Assembly (NCBI GenBank): GCA_038045945.1
Contig: JBBSXC010000004.1
Location: 35,077 to 99,076, forward strand
Length of the DNA: 64,000 bases
Source: Nanobdellota archaeon
GTDB lineage: Archaea; Nanobdellota; Nanobdellia; Pacearchaeales; GW2011-AR1
Direction of reading: 5' to 3'
Part shown: piece by piece, positions 18,229 to 40,749 of the stretch
Numbering within the stretch: the first letter of the stretch is position 1
How the letters are laid out: each line of letters starts with the position of its first letter
Position numbers and translations under genes: made by a program
The notes under the pieces: generated by a model
What the model saw: the letters and a program-made list of their open reading frames with translations, nothing else
Database searches by the model: none
Told to the model about the DNA's origin: nothing

Positions 18229-18337
18229 GATTAAATAGTTGTAATCTCTCTAGAAAAAGAGGGTTTTTAAACCATTTGCTTTTACTTCTCTAAAATAGTC
18301 TCGAAGAGATTATATACTTTCTGACCTTTATTTATTA

Positions 18338-19219
18338 ATGGTAAAATTATACTATTCTAGGCTCTCTAATGAAGAAAAGTCGACGATTAAACAATTAACA
18401 GAGGATGGTAAAAGTTTGAGAGAAATAGCAAAAATAATGAGTCTTGGGATAACCACTATTTATTATTATACTAGAAAATTTAAACCAAAAGTAAAAGAAC
18501 CATTTGTTAATAAACTAAAAGATTTTGAAGTAGGCGAGCTTATTGGAGCTTTTGCTGGGGATGGGAGCTTTATTCATCGCTTTAAGACTAATGGTGGTAG
18601 AAACTCTCAATACACAGTCAGATACCATCTTTCTTTAATAACTGATAAAGAATATGCTTCATATCTAAGCTCATTACTAGAGAAAATTAATTTAAACCCG
18701 ATGACATCATTTGTAGAAAAGTCGCATAGGCTAGATGTTACAATAAACTCAAAAGATTTCTATAATCTTGTTAAAGAGTACTTAACCTGGAAGGAGGATA
18801 AAACACTTAGCATAGAATTATCAAAACCAATCAATGAATATTATGATGATTTCTTAAGAGGTTTTGCTAGAGGGATTATGGACACTGACGGTTTTTTAAA
18901 TGATGCTAACGCTGGATGCGCATGTATTTCTGAAAGATTGATTGATAACCTAGCAGAAATATTTATGAAGTTTAATCTAAATATCTCAAGAAGTTGCATT
19001 CAAAGATCTGGAAATAGAAGACAAATATTTTATATCAGAGTTTTAAGAAAGAGTCTTGAGGATTATATCAGGGATATAGGTTTCTCTAATTTGCACAAAT
19101 CAAAAAAATTAGAATTCTTGATAAATAAAAATGGGGCTGCCCAGATTCGAACTGGGATCATGAAGTCCCAAACCTCAGATACTAACCAAGTTGTACTACA
19201 GCCCCATCTGAATAGTTGA
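18338..19219 (+). CDS. Free-standing HTH plus double-motif LAGLIDADG endonuclease-like protein
   Basis: N-terminal HTH (LTEDGKSLREIAKIMSLGITTIYYY). First LAGLIDADG motif LIGAFAGDGSF, second FLRGFARGIMDTDGFL. The open frame runs ~88 nt antisense through the tRNA-Pro gene, so the true C-terminus is uncertain. Confidence 0.55.
   Translation: MVKLYYSRLSNEEKSTIKQLTEDGKSLREIAKIMSLGITTIYYYTRKFKPKVKEPFVNKLKDFEVGELIGAFAGDGSFIHRFKTNGGRNSQYTVRYHLSLITDKEYASYLSSLLEKINLNPMTSFVEKSHRLDVTINSKDFYNLVKEYLTWKEDKTLSIELSKPINEYYDDFLRGFARGIMDTDGFLNDANAGCACISERLIDNLAEIFMKFNLNISRSCIQRSGNRRQIFYIRVLRKSLEDYIRDIGFSNLHKSKKLEFLINKNGAAQIRTGIMKSQTSDTNQVVLQPHLNS
19132..19205 (-). tRNA. tRNA-Pro (anticodon TGG)
   Basis: Manual fold: acceptor GGGGCTG/CAGCCCC, D stem GTAC/GTAT, anticodon stem TGAGG/CTTCA with loop TTTGGGA, T arm CCCAG-TTCGAAT-CTGGG, discriminator A. 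74 nt, CCA not encoded. Confidence 0.8.
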
Positions 19220-19269: not shown

Positions 19270-20028
19270 TTACTTCTTAGCTGCCGGTTTCTTAGCAGCT
19301 GCTGCTGGTGTTGCCACTGCCCCTGCTGCCGGCTTTCCTGCAGCTGCTGGTGTTGCTGCTGCCTCTCCAGGTTTAGCTGCTCCAGTACCGACTGTGCCTG
19401 CTGTTTTTCCAGCTGCGGCTGTTGCTGCAGCCTTTGCTGCTTCTTCTTCAGCCTTCTTCTCTTGCTCTTTCTTGAGCTCTAGTTCTTGTTTAGTCTTTAA
19501 TTCACTAAAGTATTTGTCTAAAGCTTTTCTTTTTTCTTCATCTACTTCTGTTTTTTCCAGCTTTATTTCCTTATCATAAATTCCCTTATCTATTTCTTTC
19601 ATTACTTCTTTAGGGTTTTTACTCTCTATAAGTATCCCAGCACTTACGCATGACCCTACGACTATTTTTACTGCTGATTTGAATCCCGATACCATCATTC
19701 CTTGCTGCTTAATCTTTGCTACACCAATTATTTGTTCTATTGCTAAGTTTCCCACTTTTTGCGTTTTTGCGCTTCCTGATGCACTCTCTATTCCTAACTC
19801 TTTCTTAAGTAAAGCCGAAGTTGGAGGTGTTGATACTTTTACGTCGAATGCTTTTGTTTTTGTGTTAACGTCTAATGCTACTGGTACTTTCATTCCTTTG
19901 AATTCTTTTGTTGATGCATTAACTTTTGCTATTACTTGGCCTATGTTTACTCCAACAGGCCCTAGTTGCTGAGCTATTGTTGGTCCTGGCTTCATGTCCC
20001 CACCATCTACAAGCAATTTAATTATCAT
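19270..20028 (-). CDS. rpl11: Ribosomal protein L11 (uL11) with a ~90-aa Ala/Lys/Pro-rich C-terminal extension
   Basis: The N-terminal 160 aa (KPGPTIAQQLGPVGVNIGQV...KVPVALDV) is canonical uL11. The C-terminal tail ...AAKAAATAAAGKTAGTVGTGAAKPGEAAATPAAAGKPAAGAVATPAAAAKKPAAKK is low-complexity and histone-H1-like. Confidence 0.8.
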   Translation of the reverse strand: MIIKLLVDGGDMKPGPTIAQQLGPVGVNIGQVIAKVNASTKEFKGMKVPVALDVNTKTKAFDVKVSTPPTSALLKKELGIESASGSAKTQKVGNLAIEQIIGVAKIKQQGMMVSGFKSAVKIVVGSCVSAGILIESKNPKEVMKEIDKGIYDKEIKLEKTEVDEEKRKALDKYFSELKTKQELELKKEQEKKAEEEAAKAAATAAAGKTAGTVGTGAAKPGEAAATPAAAGKPAAGAVATPAAAAKKPAAKK

Positions 20029-33772: not shown

Positions 33773-34063
33773 ATGGAGTACGTTTACGGAGCATTATTAT
33801 TGCATAAGCTAGGTAAACCAGTTGACGCAGAACACCTAACAAAAGTTGTTCACGCAACAGGAGTAAGTGTTGACGACGCTAAAGTTAAAACTTTAGTTGC
33901 AAGCCTTAAAGAAGTTAACATCGAACAAGAACTAGCAAACGCAAGCTTAGCAGTGGCAGCACCAGCAAACGCAGGAGCAGCACACGCACCAAAGGCAGAA
34001 GAGAAGAAGGAAGAGAAGAAGAAGGAAGAAGCTGCCGAAGGATTAAGCGCATTATTTGGATAA
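33773..34063 (+). CDS. rpl12: Ribosomal stalk protein L12 / P1
   Basis: 96 aa. MEYVYGALLLHKLGKP... with an acidic C-terminal tail ending GLSALFG. Confidence 0.85.
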   Translation: MEYVYGALLLHKLGKPVDAEHLTKVVHATGVSVDDAKVKTLVASLKEVNIEQELANASLAVAAPANAGAAHAPKAEEKKEEKKKEEAAEGLSALFG

Positions 34064-34197
34064 TTTTTTATTTTAATTTTTCATTTGTGTTTTGATTAGC
34101 ATTAATGAAAAGCGCTTAACCTTAGATAATCATAGAAAGAAACCTTTAAGGAAAAACAATAGTAAGAACGAGAAAGAATAATTCTAAAAAAAAGTTT

Positions 34198-34668
34198 TTA
34201 AGGAACAATAAGTCTTTTACCTGATTCAACTATCTTTTCATAAACTAATTGATTAACATCCATTTCCCAGAGTAACCTTTTTTCACAAAGAAATTTTTCC
34301 CTATCAACACCAAGCCCAAAAACATCATTCATCCCAAGAAGAAGACCACTAGACCTGTTTTTACCCCTCATACAATGAACAAGTAGCGCCTGAACAGTTT
34401 TATGATAAGGAATAAAATCGGAAACAACTCTATTAGCAGTTTCTTCATCAATAGCCTTACCCTCACCAGGCCTTAGACCAGTAAAGACACCTTTATCAAT
34501 ATCATCAAAAACGTACTCATTAACAGCAACCCATAATCCAGACTCTTGAAGTTTAAACTTTTCATAATCCCAGTTCATACGACCATAACCGTTAATCCTA
34601 ATAGCATAAGTTGGAACTGTAGGAACAAAATCCATAGCGTCATCAAGACTAAGCATATGGATATCCAT
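34198..34668 (-). CDS. Protein tyrosine / dual-specificity phosphatase
   Basis: Active-site P-loop HCMRGKNRSSG (HCx5R[ST]). Confidence 0.65.
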   Translation of the reverse strand: MDIHMLSLDDAMDFVPTVPTYAIRINGYGRMNWDYEKFKLQESGLWVAVNEYVFDDIDKGVFTGLRPGEGKAIDEETANRVVSDFIPYHKTVQALLVHCMRGKNRSSGLLLGMNDVFGLGVDREKFLCEKRLLWEMDVNQLVYEKIVESGKRLIVP

Positions 34669-34723
34669 AAAATATTAAATGACAGTATTCTTTAAAAAGA
34701 AAGTTATGATCAGATAGATATAA

Positions 34724-34804
34724 GCCTTCGTGGCGCAATGGTACCGCGACGGTCTCGAAAACCGTGCCCGCAAGGGCTTCCAGGTTCGATTCCTGGCGAA
34801 GGCG
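34724..34804 (+). tRNA. tRNA-Ser (anticodon CGA), type II with long variable arm
   Basis: Acceptor GCCTTCG/CGAAGGC. Anticodon stem ACGGT/ACCGT with loop CTCGAAA. Variable-arm hairpin GCCCGCAAGGGC. T arm CCAGG-TTCGATT-CCTGG. Discriminator G. 81 nt. Confidence 0.8.
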
Positions 34805-34815
34805 TAAAATTAATC

Positions 34816-35226
34816 ATGAAAATAAAACTTTATCATGTAGCAGCATTGTTTGTGATAATAATCATACTGCAGGTATCAGGGGAATATGCGGGATTATTAG
34901 ACCCATCAAGAAACATAATATGGTATGATAATGTAATGCACGCATTAGCAGGGGTGCTTAGCGGAATATTTGTGATGTGGGCTGTAGAGAAAGAATCAAT
35001 AAAAATAAGCAAGAAAAGATTAGGAATATACATAGTAATAGTAGCATTTCTAATGGCTGTGTTCTGGGAATTATTTGAACTAGCAATATTCAAAATGCTA
35101 AAAGATTACGCTATAAGTTATAACTACTCAACAACCCTAGCAGAAGCAATACTTGATTCATTATCAAACACTATTGGAGCAAGCATACTAGCAATAATAA
35201 ACTATTATATTTTTAAGAAGAATTAG
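34816..35226 (+). CDS. Small polytopic membrane protein
   Basis: The track ORF (34738) begins inside the tRNA; the first ATG downstream of the tRNA is 34816. Four hydrophobic helices. Confidence 0.45.
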   Translation: MKIKLYHVAALFVIIIILQVSGEYAGLLDPSRNIIWYDNVMHALAGVLSGIFVMWAVEKESIKISKKRLGIYIVIVAFLMAVFWELFELAIFKMLKDYAISYNYSTTLAEAILDSLSNTIGASILAIINYYIFKKN

Positions 35227-39614: not shown

Positions 39615-39674
39615 AACTATTAATTCTTAAGTAATAACGTCGATTATTTATACTTTCTACCTAATTATTATATA

Positions 39675-40253
39675 ATGGAAGCAAGTAAAGACTTAGCATT
39701 ATTTTTAGGAATGTTATGCGGAGATGGATGGCTGTCACTTGTTACAAGAGGGGATGGTTATCATAATCACAAAGTATGCTTTTGCAATACAGATGTAGTC
39801 GTTATTAATAACTTTAAAGACTTATTTTTTAAAATATTTGGTGCTAAGATCAACACATATATCAGAAAAAGGCCCCTTAGAAAAAAGATTTTTGAGCTCT
39901 CCTCATATTCAAGAGAAGTTTTCAGTAAGATTAAGGAAATGGGCTTTCCTATTGGGGTTAAGCGGGATGTTCTAAGAATTCCCGAGATAGTAAGAAATGG
40001 TTCCAATCAGGAGAAGCTAACTTTTATTTTTGGCCTCTATTTAACTGATGGTTGTCTGAAGAAAGATAACTTTATTCATTTTCACTCTGGGAGTAAGTTA
40101 CTATTAGAAGATGTTTCTGAAATTGTGAACGAGTTATTCAAGGACAAAAGAGTAGTAAAATCTTACATACAACAACAGAAATATACCTCTTATCAATTAG
40201 GTTTAAATAAGGAAGAAACTCGAATGATATTATCGTGTGCCCACATCGCGTAA
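39675..40253 (+). CDS. Free-standing double-motif LAGLIDADG endonuclease-like protein
   Basis: First motif LALFLGMLCGDGWL, second FIFGLYLTDGCL. ~190 aa, the size of single-chain LAGLIDADG enzymes. The last 15 nt including the stop lie inside the 5' end of tRNA-Ser(TGA) on the same strand. Confidence 0.6.
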   Translation: MEASKDLALFLGMLCGDGWLSLVTRGDGYHNHKVCFCNTDVVVINNFKDLFFKIFGAKINTYIRKRPLRKKIFELSSYSREVFSKIKEMGFPIGVKRDVLRIPEIVRNGSNQEKLTFIFGLYLTDGCLKKDNFIHFHSGSKLLLEDVSEIVNELFKDKRVVKSYIQQQKYTSYQLGLNKEETRMILSCAHIA

Positions 40254-40319
40254 TGGTATCGCACTAGTCTTGAGAACTAGGCCAGAAATGGCATCCCCGT
40301 TCAATTCGGGGTGTGGGCG
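40239..40319 (+). tRNA. tRNA-Ser (anticodon TGA), type II
   Basis: Acceptor GCCCACA/TGTGGGC. Anticodon stem CTAGT/ACTAG with loop CTTGAGA. Variable-arm hairpin GCCAGAAATGGC. T arm CCCCG-TTCAATT-CGGGG. Discriminator G. 81 nt. Confidence 0.8.
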
Positions 40320-40359
40320 TTCCCAATCATTTATAAAATAACTTTCTTAACAACAATTT

Positions 40360-40749
40360 ATGAGCTTCTTAAAATTTGGTGATGACGGAAAACTATTATT
40401 GACAGGAAGTATGAAAAGAGAGAAAGATGAAGAAGAATCAAGTATTATCTTAACAAAATTGCAAGTTAGTGAAAGTAGTCCAGCAATAGCACAACTAAAA
40501 ATAAGGTTAGGAAGGAAAATTTCTGGAGACAGGAAACTTTTCACTTCACTAAGAGAACAATGCGAAAAATATGTACAATACAAACAAGCATCATCACAAA
40601 CAAATATCACCACAACAGAGGAGGAAATAACTGTAGAGTCTAAGTCATCATGGGACATGTACACATACCTAAAAGAATTAATGATGAACATAAAAAATAA
40701 TAATTACGGGAACAAAGTAGTAGTCAGAGGAAGCTGGGCCAAGGAATAA
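40360..40749 (+). CDS. Hypothetical protein
   Basis: 129 aa, no motif recognised. Confidence 0.35.
   Translation: MSFLKFGDDGKLLLTGSMKREKDEEESSIILTKLQVSESSPAIAQLKIRLGRKISGDRKLFTSLREQCEKYVQYKQASSQTNITTTEEEITVESKSSWDMYTYLKELMMNIKNNNYGNKVVVRGSWAKE

What the first reader, a model, noticed from the sequence alone, without database searches (positions are those of the whole stretch)
39675..40319. Second LAGLIDADG gene terminating inside the 5' end of tRNA-Ser(TGA) on the same strand
A ~190-aa double-motif LAGLIDADG protein (LALFLGMLCGDGWL and FIFGLYLTDGCL) ends with codons that are the first 15 nt of a perfectly folding type II tRNA-Ser (acceptor GCCCACA...). Two independent LAGLIDADG genes in 64 kb, each welded to a tRNA, and a third tRNA (Ser-CGA at 34724) abutting a membrane-protein gene, make a pattern. 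The LAGLIDADG ORFs may be co-transcribed with the tRNAs and released by tRNA processing, or they may be selfish elements targeting tRNA flanks.
Basis: seen in the sequence. Interest (0 to 1): 0.65.

Follow-up and report, generated by a model that had tools for sequence, protein, structure and literature searches.

The report
Homing-endonuclease gene fused to tRNA-Ser promoter
In this DPANN archaeon, a small LAGLIDADG endonuclease gene sits directly in front of the tRNA-Ser(UGA) gene, carries that tRNA's promoter inside its last codons and has no stop codon until inside the tRNA; relatives show the same layout, in few genomes, and it behaves like a selfish gene.

Summary
ORF 39675..40253 encodes a 192-aa double-motif LAGLIDADG protein. 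Its TAA stop (40251-40253) lies 15 nt inside tRNA-Ser(UGA) (40239..40319, Rfam 52.8 bits).

The overlap is not chance. In 14 of 17 orthologous loci the ORF has no stop before the tRNA and ends 15-96 nt inside it.

A TTTAAATAA box lies at -32 to -39 from the tRNA start, within codons Leu-Asn-Lys. It is fixed at the DNA level, so I read it as the tRNA's TATA box embedded in the ORF.

The protein looks functional:
- both catalytic Asp are invariant
- dN/dS is about 0.1-0.2
- the predicted fold resembles I-DmoI and intein endonucleases

The gene is rare: about 42 protein clusters, against more than 7,700 for the neighbouring L12. It was absent from all 7 sampled relatives. One relative (L155) keeps only the 3' stub that carries the promoter.

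A second, unrelated HTH-LAGLIDADG family (18338..19219) is tied to tRNA-Pro(UGG) in the same way. It occurs on either side of that tRNA.

Best reading: these are free-standing homing-endonuclease genes anchored to tRNA genes. I rate it a new variant of a known kind. The cleavage target and the transcript structure are untested.

The parts
39647..39654 (+). TATA-like box (TTTATACT) of the LAGLIDADG gene, centred about 25 nt before the ATG. This fits a leaderless or near-leaderless mRNA.
   Evidence: Read from the sequence. Every orthologous locus has an A/T box 25-35 nt upstream of its ATG. The promoter function is inferred.
39675..40253 (+). LAGLIDADG endonuclease ORF, 192 aa. The conserved protein core is 39675..40235 (aa 1-187, ending ..MILS). 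The last 4 codons and the stop are tRNA sequence.
   Evidence: AlphaFold model pLDDT 92, pTM 0.89, with two alpha-beta-beta-alpha-beta-beta-alpha halves. Foldseek matches an intein endonuclease domain and I-DmoI at TM 0.72-0.77, E about 1e-10.
39693..39734 (+). LAGLIDADG motif 1 (LALFLGMLCGDGWL). The catalytic Asp17 codon is 39723-39725.
   Evidence: G16, D17 and G18 are invariant in 26 sequences.
40023..40058 (+). LAGLIDADG motif 2 (FIFGLYLTDGCL). The catalytic Asp125 codon is 40047-40049.
   Evidence: T124, D125 and G126 are invariant in 26 sequences.
40202..40210 (+). TTTAAATAA, the inferred TATA box of the tRNA-Ser(UGA) promoter. It lies inside the ORF: the last base of codon Gly176, then Leu177-Asn178-Lys179. 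It starts at -37 from tRNA +1.
   Evidence: The box is at -32 to -39 in 13 of 14 overlapping loci. Codon counts over 18 sequences are TTA 18/18, NNT 17/18 where the amino acid varies, TTA 17/18 and AAT 17/18, against 48% TTA and 36% third-position T elsewhere in the gene. The box has decayed in 2 of the 3 loci that have a separate promoter. The other tRNAs of the window have A/T boxes at about -33/-34.
40239..40319 (+). tRNA-Ser(UGA), class II, no intron. The anticodon is at 40271-40273.
   Evidence: 52.8 bits.
40239..40253 (+). The 15-nt ORF/tRNA overlap. Codons Ala-His-Ile-Ala-stop are the acceptor stem and D-arm, and the stop TAA is in the D-loop (GTAATGG).
   Evidence: The closest homologues P0002 and P0023 end ..ARIA and ..ASIA.
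18338..19219 (+). Second gene, HTH_38 + LAGLIDADG, 293 aa. The conserved core ends at about 19129 (..FLINK). The last 29 codons are the antisense of tRNA-Pro.
   Evidence: D75 and D184 are invariant.
19132..19205 (-). tRNA-Pro(UGG), convergent with the second LAGLIDADG gene and wholly covered by its ORF.
   Evidence: 57.5 bits.
34724..34804 (+). tRNA-Ser(CGA). It has no LAGLIDADG partner. The downstream DUF2238 gene most likely starts at 34816.

Best explanation
This is a free-standing LAGLIDADG homing-endonuclease gene, of the I-DmoI / intein-endonuclease kind, lodged directly upstream of the tRNA-Ser(UGA) gene of a DPANN (Nanoarchaeota) archaeon.

Shown:
- The ORF has absorbed the tRNA's upstream region. 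A TTTAAATAA box about 37 nt before the tRNA is encoded as Leu-Asn-Lys, at the turn before the C-terminal helix.
- The ORF has no stop codon of its own. It runs on until one happens to occur inside the tRNA.
- The layout recurs in 14 of 17 orthologous loci.
- The protein is under purifying selection and keeps both catalytic Asp.
- The gene is rare among relatives.
- One relative keeps only the 3' stub that carries the promoter.

Inferred:
- The tRNA is transcribed from the internal box. The endonuclease is transcribed from its own box about 25 nt before the ATG, with read-through into the tRNA.
- The enzyme cuts alleles that lack the gene, at or next to the tRNA gene. It is then copied in by repair, with the conserved tRNA serving as one homology arm.
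- Because the gene's 3' end carries the promoter of an essential tRNA, only deletions that spare that end are viable. This would slow its loss.

The ORF/tRNA overlap itself is a by-product of this tight packing, not a device. A second, unrelated HTH-LAGLIDADG family does the same with tRNA-Pro(UGG).
For: Identity and integrity:
- Pfam LAGLIDADG_3 match.
- Model pLDDT 92.
- Foldseek to TliVMA intein, I-DmoI and PI-PfuI.
- PDB profile hits to PI-PkoII and I-DmoI.
- Invariant GDG and TDG.
- dN/dS 0.10-0.18.

Conserved linkage:
- 15 of 18 genome loci have tRNA-Ser(UGA) immediately 3' of the ORF.
- 14 of 17 ORFs stop 15-96 nt inside the tRNA, at varying positions.
- The LAG+tRNA unit lies between the L1-L10-L12 operon and a conserved 90-aa gene, in both orientations, so it inverts as a block.

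Embedded promoter:
- Position and codon-level conservation of the box.
- Sites in relatives without the gene use different boxes (GGTTTAAAAG, GATTTATAAG) at a similar distance.

Rarity and loss:
- 42 protein clusters, against more than 7,736 for L12.
- 15 representative clusters at E<=1e-30 among 1.84 billion.
- 0 of 7 relatives chosen by L12 similarity have the gene; 5 of them have L12 followed directly by tRNA-Ser(UGA).
- L155 retains 'LYLNKEKRQVLLS', with the LAG-type box, directly before tRNA-Ser.
- L155 also retains 'RKSLEDYRQQIGFSNDYKLNTSNQILEKV*', the last ~29 aa of family 2, before tRNA-Pro (E about 4e-10).

Mobility of family 2:
- It is always next to tRNA-Pro(UGG), between L11 and L37ae.
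- It lies either upstream on the same strand or downstream and convergent. Its 3' end faces the tRNA in both cases.

Other checks: no integrase or transposase nearby, no match to known defence families, not found on viral contigs.
Against: - No cleavage site is known. tRNA-Ser sequences next to the gene (the intron-less ones) do not differ consistently from those without it. A target inside the tRNA would therefore leave the host open to self-cleavage.
- No polymorphism for presence or absence within one species was found.
- The protein is as conserved as, or more conserved than, the host's L1+L10, and roughly tracks them (Pearson 0.57). That also fits a long-retained host function.
- The left boundary of the element could not be defined, because upstream DNA is not conserved.
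- Promoter use and transcript ends are inferred from sequence only.
Confidence: 0.6

Rival explanations
1. A domesticated LAGLIDADG protein with a host role at its tRNA gene. It could be a DNA-binding regulator of tRNA-Ser transcription, as WhiA is a LAGLIDADG-derived transcription factor, or an RNA chaperone/maturase for the intron-bearing pre-tRNA. On this view it is kept next to its target for co-regulation.
For: - Strong purifying selection.
- Identity equal to or above that of ribosomal proteins L1+L10, and loosely co-diverging with them.
- Fixed syntenic position.
- WhiA appears among the fold matches.
- Family 2 carries an extra HTH domain.
- 10 of the 16 tRNA-Ser genes found next to an intact gene carry an intron.
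Against: - The gene is absent from the great majority of relatives, and from all 7 sampled. These have the same tRNA genes and no replacement.
- Both catalytic Asp are invariant in both families. WhiA and most maturases have lost them (from general knowledge).
- L155 lost both genes and kept both tRNAs.
- The introns are ordinary bulge-helix-bulge introns, which the splicing endonuclease handles.
- The window's own tRNAs have no introns.
Confidence: 0.2
2. A polycistronic ORF-tRNA unit. The endonuclease mRNA is made only as the 5' leader of the pre-tRNA and is released by RNase P. tRNA processing therefore sets its level, and the overlap is a functional coupling device.
For: - There is no oligo-T terminator between the ORF and the tRNA.
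- There is no stop codon before the tRNA in 14 of 17 loci.
- Protein conservation ends within 0-3 codons of tRNA +1. That would fit a C-terminus defined by RNA cleavage.
Against: - The tRNA has its own conserved box at the usual distance, so it does not depend on the ORF's promoter.
- RNase P cleavage would leave the mRNA without a stop codon.
- Three loci have their own stop, a ~50-nt spacer and a separate promoter, with no change to the protein.
- In this window family 2 is antisense to its tRNA.
Confidence: 0.12
3. Collaborative homing. The endonuclease cuts the intron-less tRNA gene at the anticodon loop. The tRNA intron interrupts that site and gives immunity, so the gene and the intron spread together.
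For: - 10 of the 16 tRNA-Ser genes found next to an intact gene have a canonical 37/38 intron, against 0 of 5 gene-free tRNA-Ser genes.
- tRNA-Pro genes next to family 2 often have introns, some at unusual positions.
Against: - The window, L007, L012, L013, L015 and L017 have an intact gene beside an intron-less tRNA.
- The 5 gene-free sites all come from the window's own clade, so the comparison is not independent.
- Intron presence varies within each protein subclade.
Confidence: 0.06
4. An annotation or assembly artefact: the real stop lies upstream, or the gene is a decaying pseudogene that happens to abut a tRNA.
For: The ORF's last residues are not conserved as protein. Tails differ in length and frame among homologues.
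Against: - The same ORF is on record from 5 contigs in three archives.
- 14 of 17 orthologues also lack an upstream stop.
- The full-length fold is confident, catalytic residues are invariant and dN/dS is low.
Confidence: 0.02

Closest known systems
I-DmoI and other archaeal monomeric double-motif LAGLIDADG endonucleases, and the endonuclease domains of archaeal inteins (PI-PfuI, PI-PkoII, TliVMA)
   Same: Size of about 190 aa, two LAGLIDADG motifs each ending in a catalytic Asp, and the same fold (TM 0.72-0.77). NCBIfam matches only the intein-bearing models.
   Different: Those enzymes are encoded inside rRNA introns or inteins and home into the interrupted gene. This one is free-standing, lies outside the tRNA, and shares only about 20% identity with them.
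Free-standing homing endonucleases in phage tRNA gene clusters, such as T4 SegB (PMC2988022, PMC13096335; the other details are from general knowledge)
   Same: A free-standing endonuclease gene sits among or next to tRNA genes. It is thought to cut the tRNA region of genomes that lack it and to be inherited together with the flanking tRNA DNA.
   Different: SegB is a GIY-YIG enzyme in a phage. It does not share coding sequence with a tRNA promoter or a tRNA. The genes here are LAGLIDADG enzymes in cellular archaeal chromosomes, each tied to one tRNA across many genera.
Free-standing LAGLIDADG/GIY-YIG genes near tRNA genes in fungal mitochondrial genomes (PMC6506933, PMC5626475)
   Same: LAGLIDADG ORFs lie outside introns in intergenic DNA near tRNAs and are patchily distributed.
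   Different: Those are organellar, are not tied to a particular tRNA, and no embedded tRNA promoter is described.
Collaborative homing: a free-standing endonuclease plus a neighbouring intron that lacks one
   Same: A free-standing endonuclease gene lies next to a gene that often carries an intron.
   Different: Here the intron is optional. Intact genes sit beside intron-less tRNAs, so the defining logic of intron-as-immunity is not met.
WhiA (bacterial LAGLIDADG-derived transcription factor)
   Same: LAGLIDADG scaffold joined to an HTH domain, as in family 2. It appears among the fold matches.
   Different: WhiA lacks the catalytic residues and is universal in its clade (from general knowledge). 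Here the catalytic Asp are invariant and the genes are rare.
SSV-type integrases, whose gene overlaps a tRNA attachment site (from general knowledge)
   Same: The ORF of a mobile element shares nucleotides with a tRNA gene.
   Different: Those are tyrosine recombinases that overlap the tRNA's 3' part and mark the ends of a provirus. There is no integrase or provirus here, and the flanks are conserved housekeeping genes.

Membership tests
LAGLIDADG endonuclease superfamily (monomeric, double-motif) | Two LAGLIDADG helices, each ending in an acidic metal-binding residue | tested here: met
   ..LGMLCGDG.. (D17) and ..GLYLTDG.. (D125). GDG and TDG are invariant in 26 sequences. Family 2: D75 and D184 are invariant.
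LAGLIDADG endonuclease superfamily (monomeric, double-motif) | Profile match to a curated LAGLIDADG family | tested here: met
   PF14528 at 33.7 bits (cut-off 22.5). PF03161 is below its cut-off.
LAGLIDADG endonuclease superfamily (monomeric, double-motif) | Pseudo-dimeric alpha-beta-beta-alpha-beta-beta-alpha fold with a beta-sheet DNA saddle | tested here: met
   pLDDT 92, with the secondary-structure order as expected. Foldseek E about 1e-10 to I-DmoI and intein endonuclease domains.
Homing endonuclease gene (selfish, mobile) | Site-specific double-strand cleavage of the allele that lacks the gene | not testable with these tools
   This needs an enzyme assay. No target could be deduced from comparing sites with and without the gene.
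Homing endonuclease gene (selfish, mobile) | Patchy presence at one fixed site, with empty and degenerate sites among relatives | tested here: met
   Same site relative to the tRNA in all loci. 0 of 7 sampled relatives carry it, and L155 has 3' stubs of both families.
Homing endonuclease gene (selfish, mobile) | Horizontal spread: gene tree at odds with host tree, or polymorphism within a species | tested here: inconclusive
   Protein identity only loosely tracks L1+L10 identity (Pearson 0.57), and several pairs are more alike in the endonuclease than in the ribosomal proteins. There are only 11 loci and no same-species comparison. Family 2 changes side relative to tRNA-Pro even within a subclade.
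Archaeal intron-encoded endonuclease (I-DmoI type) | The gene lies inside a bulge-helix-bulge or group I intron of the target gene | tested here: not met
   The ORF lies wholly 5' of the tRNA. Where tRNA introns are present they are 14-56 nt and hold no ORF.
Collaborative homing pair | The intron is always present beside the endonuclease gene and interrupts its target | tested here: not met
   Six intact genes, including the window's, sit beside intron-less tRNA-Ser.
Archaeal tRNA gene with an upstream TATA promoter | A/T-rich 8-bp box about 25-35 nt upstream of the mature 5' end | tested here: met
   TTTAAATAA at -37 in the window and -32 to -39 in 13 of 14 loci. The other tRNAs of the window and the gene-free sites have boxes at a similar distance. 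Actual start-site use was not tested.

The most novel reading that the evidence does not exclude
DPANN archaea host a radiation of LAGLIDADG homing endonucleases, each specialised on one tRNA gene. So far: tRNA-Ser(UGA), tRNA-Pro(UGG), and at least one more class-II-like tRNA with G73.

These genes persist by capturing the tRNA's promoter inside their own coding sequence. Deleting the selfish gene outright would then silence an essential tRNA, a form of addiction by promoter capture. Their attack on tRNA genes would be one of the pressures behind the many introns, some at odd positions, in these archaeal tRNA genes, with introns acting as target-site immunity.
Probability: 0.12. Interest if true: 0.8.

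Novelty: new variant of a known kind. Interest (0 to 1): 0.55.

Why it matters
Free-standing homing endonucleases are well known in phages and organelles. They are much less well described in cellular archaeal chromosomes. Full-text searches of the paper library found nothing linking LAGLIDADG genes to tRNA genes in DPANN archaea.

The locus shows a compact three-way overlap:
- a protein's C-terminal helix
- the TATA box of an essential tRNA
- the tRNA itself

Comparative evidence shows that the DNA-level signal constrains codon choice.

If the endonucleases are active, there are three further points:
- They would be new natural enzymes with long recognition sites at or near tRNA genes.
- They would give a concrete way to test how selfish genes persist in very small genomes.
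- They would make testable the older idea that mobile elements shape how archaeal tRNA genes are built.

For annotation, the result explains why gene callers give these proteins odd tRNA-encoded tails ('MPPSHNGIAPVLS', 'NGAARI', 'AGVAEWPNG'). It also explains why default tRNA scans miss the intron-bearing partners.

Tried and rejected
1. DNA-pattern scan for tRNA-Ser(UGA) 5' halves (AATGGTANNNCNNNNNGTCTTGAG), to find gene-free sites. All were chance matches in coding DNA: no tRNA and no LAGLIDADG. Gene-free sites were instead found by walking from L12 homologues.

2. Default ARAGORN found a tRNA in only 5 of 18 loci. Rerunning with introns allowed, and reading the junctions directly, showed 15 of 18.

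3. Intron versus gene association: 10 of 16 against 0 of 5, Fisher one-sided about 0.02 by my hand calculation. Rejected as evidence, because the gene-free sample is all from one clade in which the window's own tRNA, next to an intact gene, also has no intron.

4. Looked for base differences between tRNA-Ser genes with and without the neighbouring gene that could mark a target or immunity site. None was consistent.

5. Looked for a conserved left boundary upstream of the ATG. None found.

6. Viral contigs hold no family 1 relatives, and only distant LAGLIDADG matches to family 2. PADLOC defence models gave nothing meaningful.

7. The shared 10-mer TATACTTTCT in the upstream regions of both LAGLIDADG genes of the window is not significant by shuffling. 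CTTTCT also lies upstream of the ORF at 40360, so it is probably a general promoter feature.

8. Tried to identify the tRNA next to the distant relatives P0263 and P0298 (L165, L166). Rfam gave no match, and ARAGORN after trial deletions of a single segment gave conflicting calls. Left unresolved.

9. The two window proteins are only remotely alike (E 0.004), so they are not recent duplicates.
Full report
**1. What is at the coordinates**

The window is AT-rich (34.6% G+C) and archaeal. It encodes ribosomal proteins L37ae, L11 and P1/L12, and Spt5. The protein of the finding is 100% identical to an NCBI entry from a 'Nanoarchaeota archaeon' genome bin.

ORF 39675..40253 (+) encodes 192 aa. It matches Pfam LAGLIDADG_3 above its cut-off.

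ARAGORN finds tRNA-Ser(tga) at 40238..40320. Rfam's tRNA model gives 52.8 bits at 40239..40319, against a gathering score of 29. The acceptor stem pairing fits the Rfam coordinates.

The stop TAA is at 40251-40253, in the D-loop (GTAATGG). The same protein is on record from five contigs in three archives, so this is not a one-off sequencing error.

**2. The overlap is conserved, not accidental**

A search of 5.8 billion protein clusters found 42 homologues at 42-59% identity over the full length. Their C-terminal tails, such as 'MPPSHNGIAPVLS' and 'MPTWDNGTPLAL', are conserved. They are simply a tRNA's D-arm and anticodon arm read in another frame.

Eighteen loci were fetched from species-representative genomes. 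Most are labelled Pacearchaeota, Woesearchaeota or Nanoarchaeota; three carry other labels.

Read with introns allowed, 15 of the 18 have tRNA-Ser(UGA) immediately 3' of the ORF on the same strand. The other three are an assembly gap, a truncated tRNA and a gene fragment.

In 14 of 17 ORFs, counting the window, there is no stop before the tRNA. The ORF ends 15-96 nt inside it, at varying positions. The other three (L010, L013, L016, one clade) have their own stop, a homologous ~50-nt spacer and a separate TTTTTAAA box at -31.

Protein-level conservation ends at '..ILS', 0-3 codons before tRNA +1.

**3. The tRNA's promoter lies inside the ORF**

TTTAAATAA starts at -37 in the window (40202-40210). 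It starts at -32 to -39 in 13 of the 14 overlapping loci. That is the usual distance for an archaeal TATA box followed by a short leader.

The window's other tRNAs have A/T boxes at about -33/-34. Sites without the gene have boxes at about -30 to -38.

The box is encoded as Leu-Asn-Lys, preceded by the last base of a variable codon. Across 18 sequences:

| Codon | Count |
|---|---|
| Leu (before the variable codon) | TTA 18/18 |
| Variable (N, S, C, L, G or Y) | ends in T 17/18 |
| Leu | TTA 17/18 |
| Asn | AAT 17/18 |

Elsewhere in the same genes TTA makes up 48% of Leu codons, and T makes up 36% of third positions. A fixed third base under a changing amino acid points to a DNA-level constraint.

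In two of the three loci with a separate downstream promoter, the internal box has decayed to ATTAAACAA and TCTAAATAA.

In the predicted structure these codons form the turn between the last beta-strand (170-176) and a C-terminal helix (179-191).

Use of the box as a promoter is inferred. No transcript data were available.

**4. The protein looks like a working endonuclease**

- The AlphaFold model is confident (pLDDT 92, pTM 0.89). It shows two alpha-beta-beta-alpha-beta-beta-alpha halves.
- Foldseek's best matches are the endonuclease domain of the TliVMA intein, I-DmoI and PI-PfuI (E about 1e-10, TM 0.72-0.77, about 20% identity).
- A profile search of PDB sequences finds PI-PkoII and I-DmoI.
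- NCBIfam matches only intein-bearing models.
- The GDG and TDG triplets holding the two catalytic Asp are invariant.
- dN/dS for the closest pairs is 0.10-0.18, though dS is near saturation.

**5. A second, unrelated family does the same with tRNA-Pro**

ORF 18338..19219 (+, 293 aa) has an N-terminal HTH_38 domain and a LAGLIDADG_3 domain. It is only remotely similar to the first protein (E 0.004).

Its 84 homologues end at about aa 264. The window's last 29 codons are the antisense of tRNA-Pro(UGG) (19132..19205, minus strand).

Contexts place the family between L11 and L37ae, always beside tRNA-Pro(UGG). There are two arrangements:
- downstream and convergent, with the conserved core ending 0-2 nt from the tRNA's 3' end (window, L023)
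- upstream on the same strand, with the stop codon inside the tRNA's A/T box (L019, L021, and the L155 remnant)

About 26 of the 84 proteins have tails that are antisense tRNA T-arm peptides ('..NGxARI', 'GFEP', 'DLN'). This shows the convergent form is common.

Both arrangements occur within one subclade: P0122 is upstream and P0118 is convergent. The gene has therefore moved relative to the tRNA more than once. In both arrangements the gene's 3' end faces the tRNA.

One untested idea follows from tRNA structure. The two ends of a tRNA gene are an inverted repeat (the acceptor stem). An enzyme, or a repair event, keyed to the acceptor sequence would see both ends alike.

**6. Position in the genome**

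The LAG+tRNA-Ser unit lies between the L1-L10-L12 operon and a conserved 90-aa gene, which is followed by a phosphorylase-like gene and a permease-like gene. It occurs in both orientations relative to these flanks, so gene and tRNA invert together as a block.

In the window's own lineage L12 is followed by tRNA-Ser(CGA). The unit lies 5.6 kb further on.

No integrase, transposase or viral gene is nearby.

**7. Rarity, empty sites and remnants**

L12 has more than 7,736 homologues at E<=1e-10, against 42 for the endonuclease. An exhaustive profile search of 1.84 billion representatives finds only 15 clusters at E<=1e-30.

Seven relatives were picked by L12 similarity (57-87% identity). None has the gene:
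- Five (L155, L157-L160) have L12 followed by tRNA-Ser(UGA), and L11 followed by tRNA-Pro(UGG). All of these tRNAs lack introns.
- Two (L154, L156) have tRNA-Ser(CGA) after L12, as the window does.

Four of the gene-free tRNA-Ser sites have ordinary boxes (GGTTTAAAAG, GATTTAAAAG, GCTTTAAAAG, GATTTATAAG).

L155 is different. Directly before tRNA-Ser it keeps 'AGTTATATTTAAATAAGGAAAAA...'. This reads LYLNKEKRQVLLS, the last 13 residues of family 1 including the LAG-type box.

Before tRNA-Pro, L155 keeps 'RKSLEDYRQQIGFSNDYKLNTSNQILEKV*'. This is the last ~29 residues of family 2 (57-63% identity, E about 4e-10 against the small test set). Its stop lies in the GTTTAAAAG box.

Both genes were therefore deleted in that lineage, and the stubs that carry the tRNA promoters survived.

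Rare presence, intact active-site residues where the gene is present, and decayed remnants where it is absent together form the classic profile of a homing-endonuclease gene. They argue against an essential host gene.

**8. What remains open**

I could not deduce the cleavage target:
- Intron-less tRNA-Ser genes next to the endonuclease gene do not differ consistently from gene-free ones.
- The DNA upstream of the ATG is not conserved.

Ten of the 16 tRNA-Ser genes found next to an intact gene carry a canonical bulge-helix-bulge intron at 37/38 (CUUG/CAAG helix with 3-nt bulges). None of the five gene-free ones does. That sample is phylogenetically biased, and six intact genes, including the window's, sit beside intron-less tRNAs. 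Intron-based immunity is therefore not supported.

The endonuclease is as conserved as the host's L1+L10, or more so, and only loosely tracks them (Pearson 0.57 over 55 pairs; for example 0.58 against 0.42 for L002/L012). This fits either transfer among relatives or a retained function. I therefore keep a domesticated role as the main rival (0.2).

Co-transcription with release by RNase P is possible but unnecessary. It would leave the mRNA without a stop codon.

**9. Wider pattern (partly followed up)**

Among more distant free-standing LAGLIDADG representatives, at least 13 of about 95 end in 'AGV[AP]E[WRS]..NG'. Back-translated, this is GCNGGNGTNGCNGARTGG, the start of a tRNA (acceptor stem, U8, D-stem, A14, R15, GG).

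Two such proteins, P0298 and P0263, were located in L165 and L166:
- They lie next to Trm112.
- They have a 'FPLKN' box (CTTAAAAAT / CTTTAAAGAAT) about 35 nt before the junction.
- They run into a class-II-like tRNA with discriminator G. That tRNA is interrupted by more than 100 nt of intervening sequence, parts of which the two loci share.

Its identity could not be settled. The architecture is probably more general than the two families seen in this window.

**10. Comparison with what is known, and verdict**

By sequence, active-site residues and fold, the protein belongs to the LAGLIDADG superfamily. It is not an intron-encoded or intein-encoded enzyme, and it does not meet the definition of a collaborative-homing pair.

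It works most like the free-standing endonucleases of phage tRNA clusters (T4 SegB) and of fungal mitochondria. It differs in four ways:
- it is chromosomal and archaeal
- it is tied to one particular tRNA across many genera
- it shares codons with the tRNA's promoter
- it usually also shares codons with the tRNA itself

Searches of the paper library found no description of this.

I rate it a new variant of a known kind, with interest 0.55. The architecture is well supported by comparison. The selfish homing mechanism is inferred, with confidence 0.6.

Noticed in passing
L155:10292-10420 and L155:1383-1577 (minus strand): A relative (GCA_964573625.1) lacks both LAGLIDADG genes. It keeps short 3' stubs of each directly upstream of tRNA-Ser(UGA) and tRNA-Pro(UGG). 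Each stub contains the tRNA's A/T box.
   Followed up: yes
L165:1101-2231; L166:1680-2790: Distant relatives with a ~100-aa N-terminal extension, next to Trm112, also run into a tRNA-like 5' end (GCYGGGRTGGCWGA). That tRNA is interrupted by more than 100 nt containing blocks shared by the two loci (GGCGAAACTTGAG, GGCTTGACYCTGATT). Rfam finds nothing, and the tRNA's identity is unresolved.
   Followed up: partly
proteins P0255-P0389: At least 13 more distant free-standing LAGLIDADG representatives end in 'AGVAE(W/S/R)..NG'-type tails. Back-translated, these give the first ~25 nt of a tRNA. More LAGLIDADG subfamilies are probably joined to tRNA genes in the same way.
   Followed up: partly
L021:3780-4115; L023:3793-3900; L019:3833-3947: tRNA-Pro(UGG) genes beside family 2 carry introns. 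These include what looks like an intron in the T-arm/variable region (L023) and several interruptions (L021). The window's tRNA-Pro and those of five relatives without the LAGLIDADG genes have none.
   Followed up: no
window 34724-35226: The listed ORF 34738..35226 starts at an ATG inside the D-loop of tRNA-Ser(CGA). The likely true start is 34816, which gives 136 aa, the length of the called orthologue in L156. There is no real overlap.
   Followed up: yes
window 19270-20028 (minus strand): Ribosomal protein L11 carries an extension of roughly 100 aa beyond its Pfam domains: a Lys/Glu-rich stretch followed by an Ala/Pro/Gly/Lys-rich tail. Similar tails appear in relatives (L157, L158 upstream sequences).
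   Followed up: no
L001-L017: The LAG+tRNA-Ser unit occurs in both orientations between the same flanking genes (the L12 operon and a 90-aa gene). It is inverted as a block.
   Followed up: partly
window 18313-18327 and 39649-39662: The upstream regions of the two LAGLIDADG genes share TATACTTTCT(G)ACCT. This is not significant by shuffling, and CTTTCT also lies upstream of the ORF at 40360, so it is probably a general promoter feature.
   Followed up: partly
L002, L016, L018 (record titles): Three loci carry the family 1 archaeal gene but are labelled 'Paceibacterota bacterium', 'Dojkabacteria bacterium' and 'Methanosarcinales archaeon'; L002 and L016 also carry archaeal L1-L10-L12 ribosomal genes. 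These are probably mis-binned or mislabelled contigs. L018 holds only aa 1-124 of the gene, followed by repetitive DNA.
   Followed up: no
window 33773-34804; L154; L156: In the window's lineage L12 is followed by tRNA-Ser(CGA). In most relatives tRNA-Ser(UGA) holds that position. The two tRNA-Ser genes of the window are not close copies of each other.
   Followed up: no
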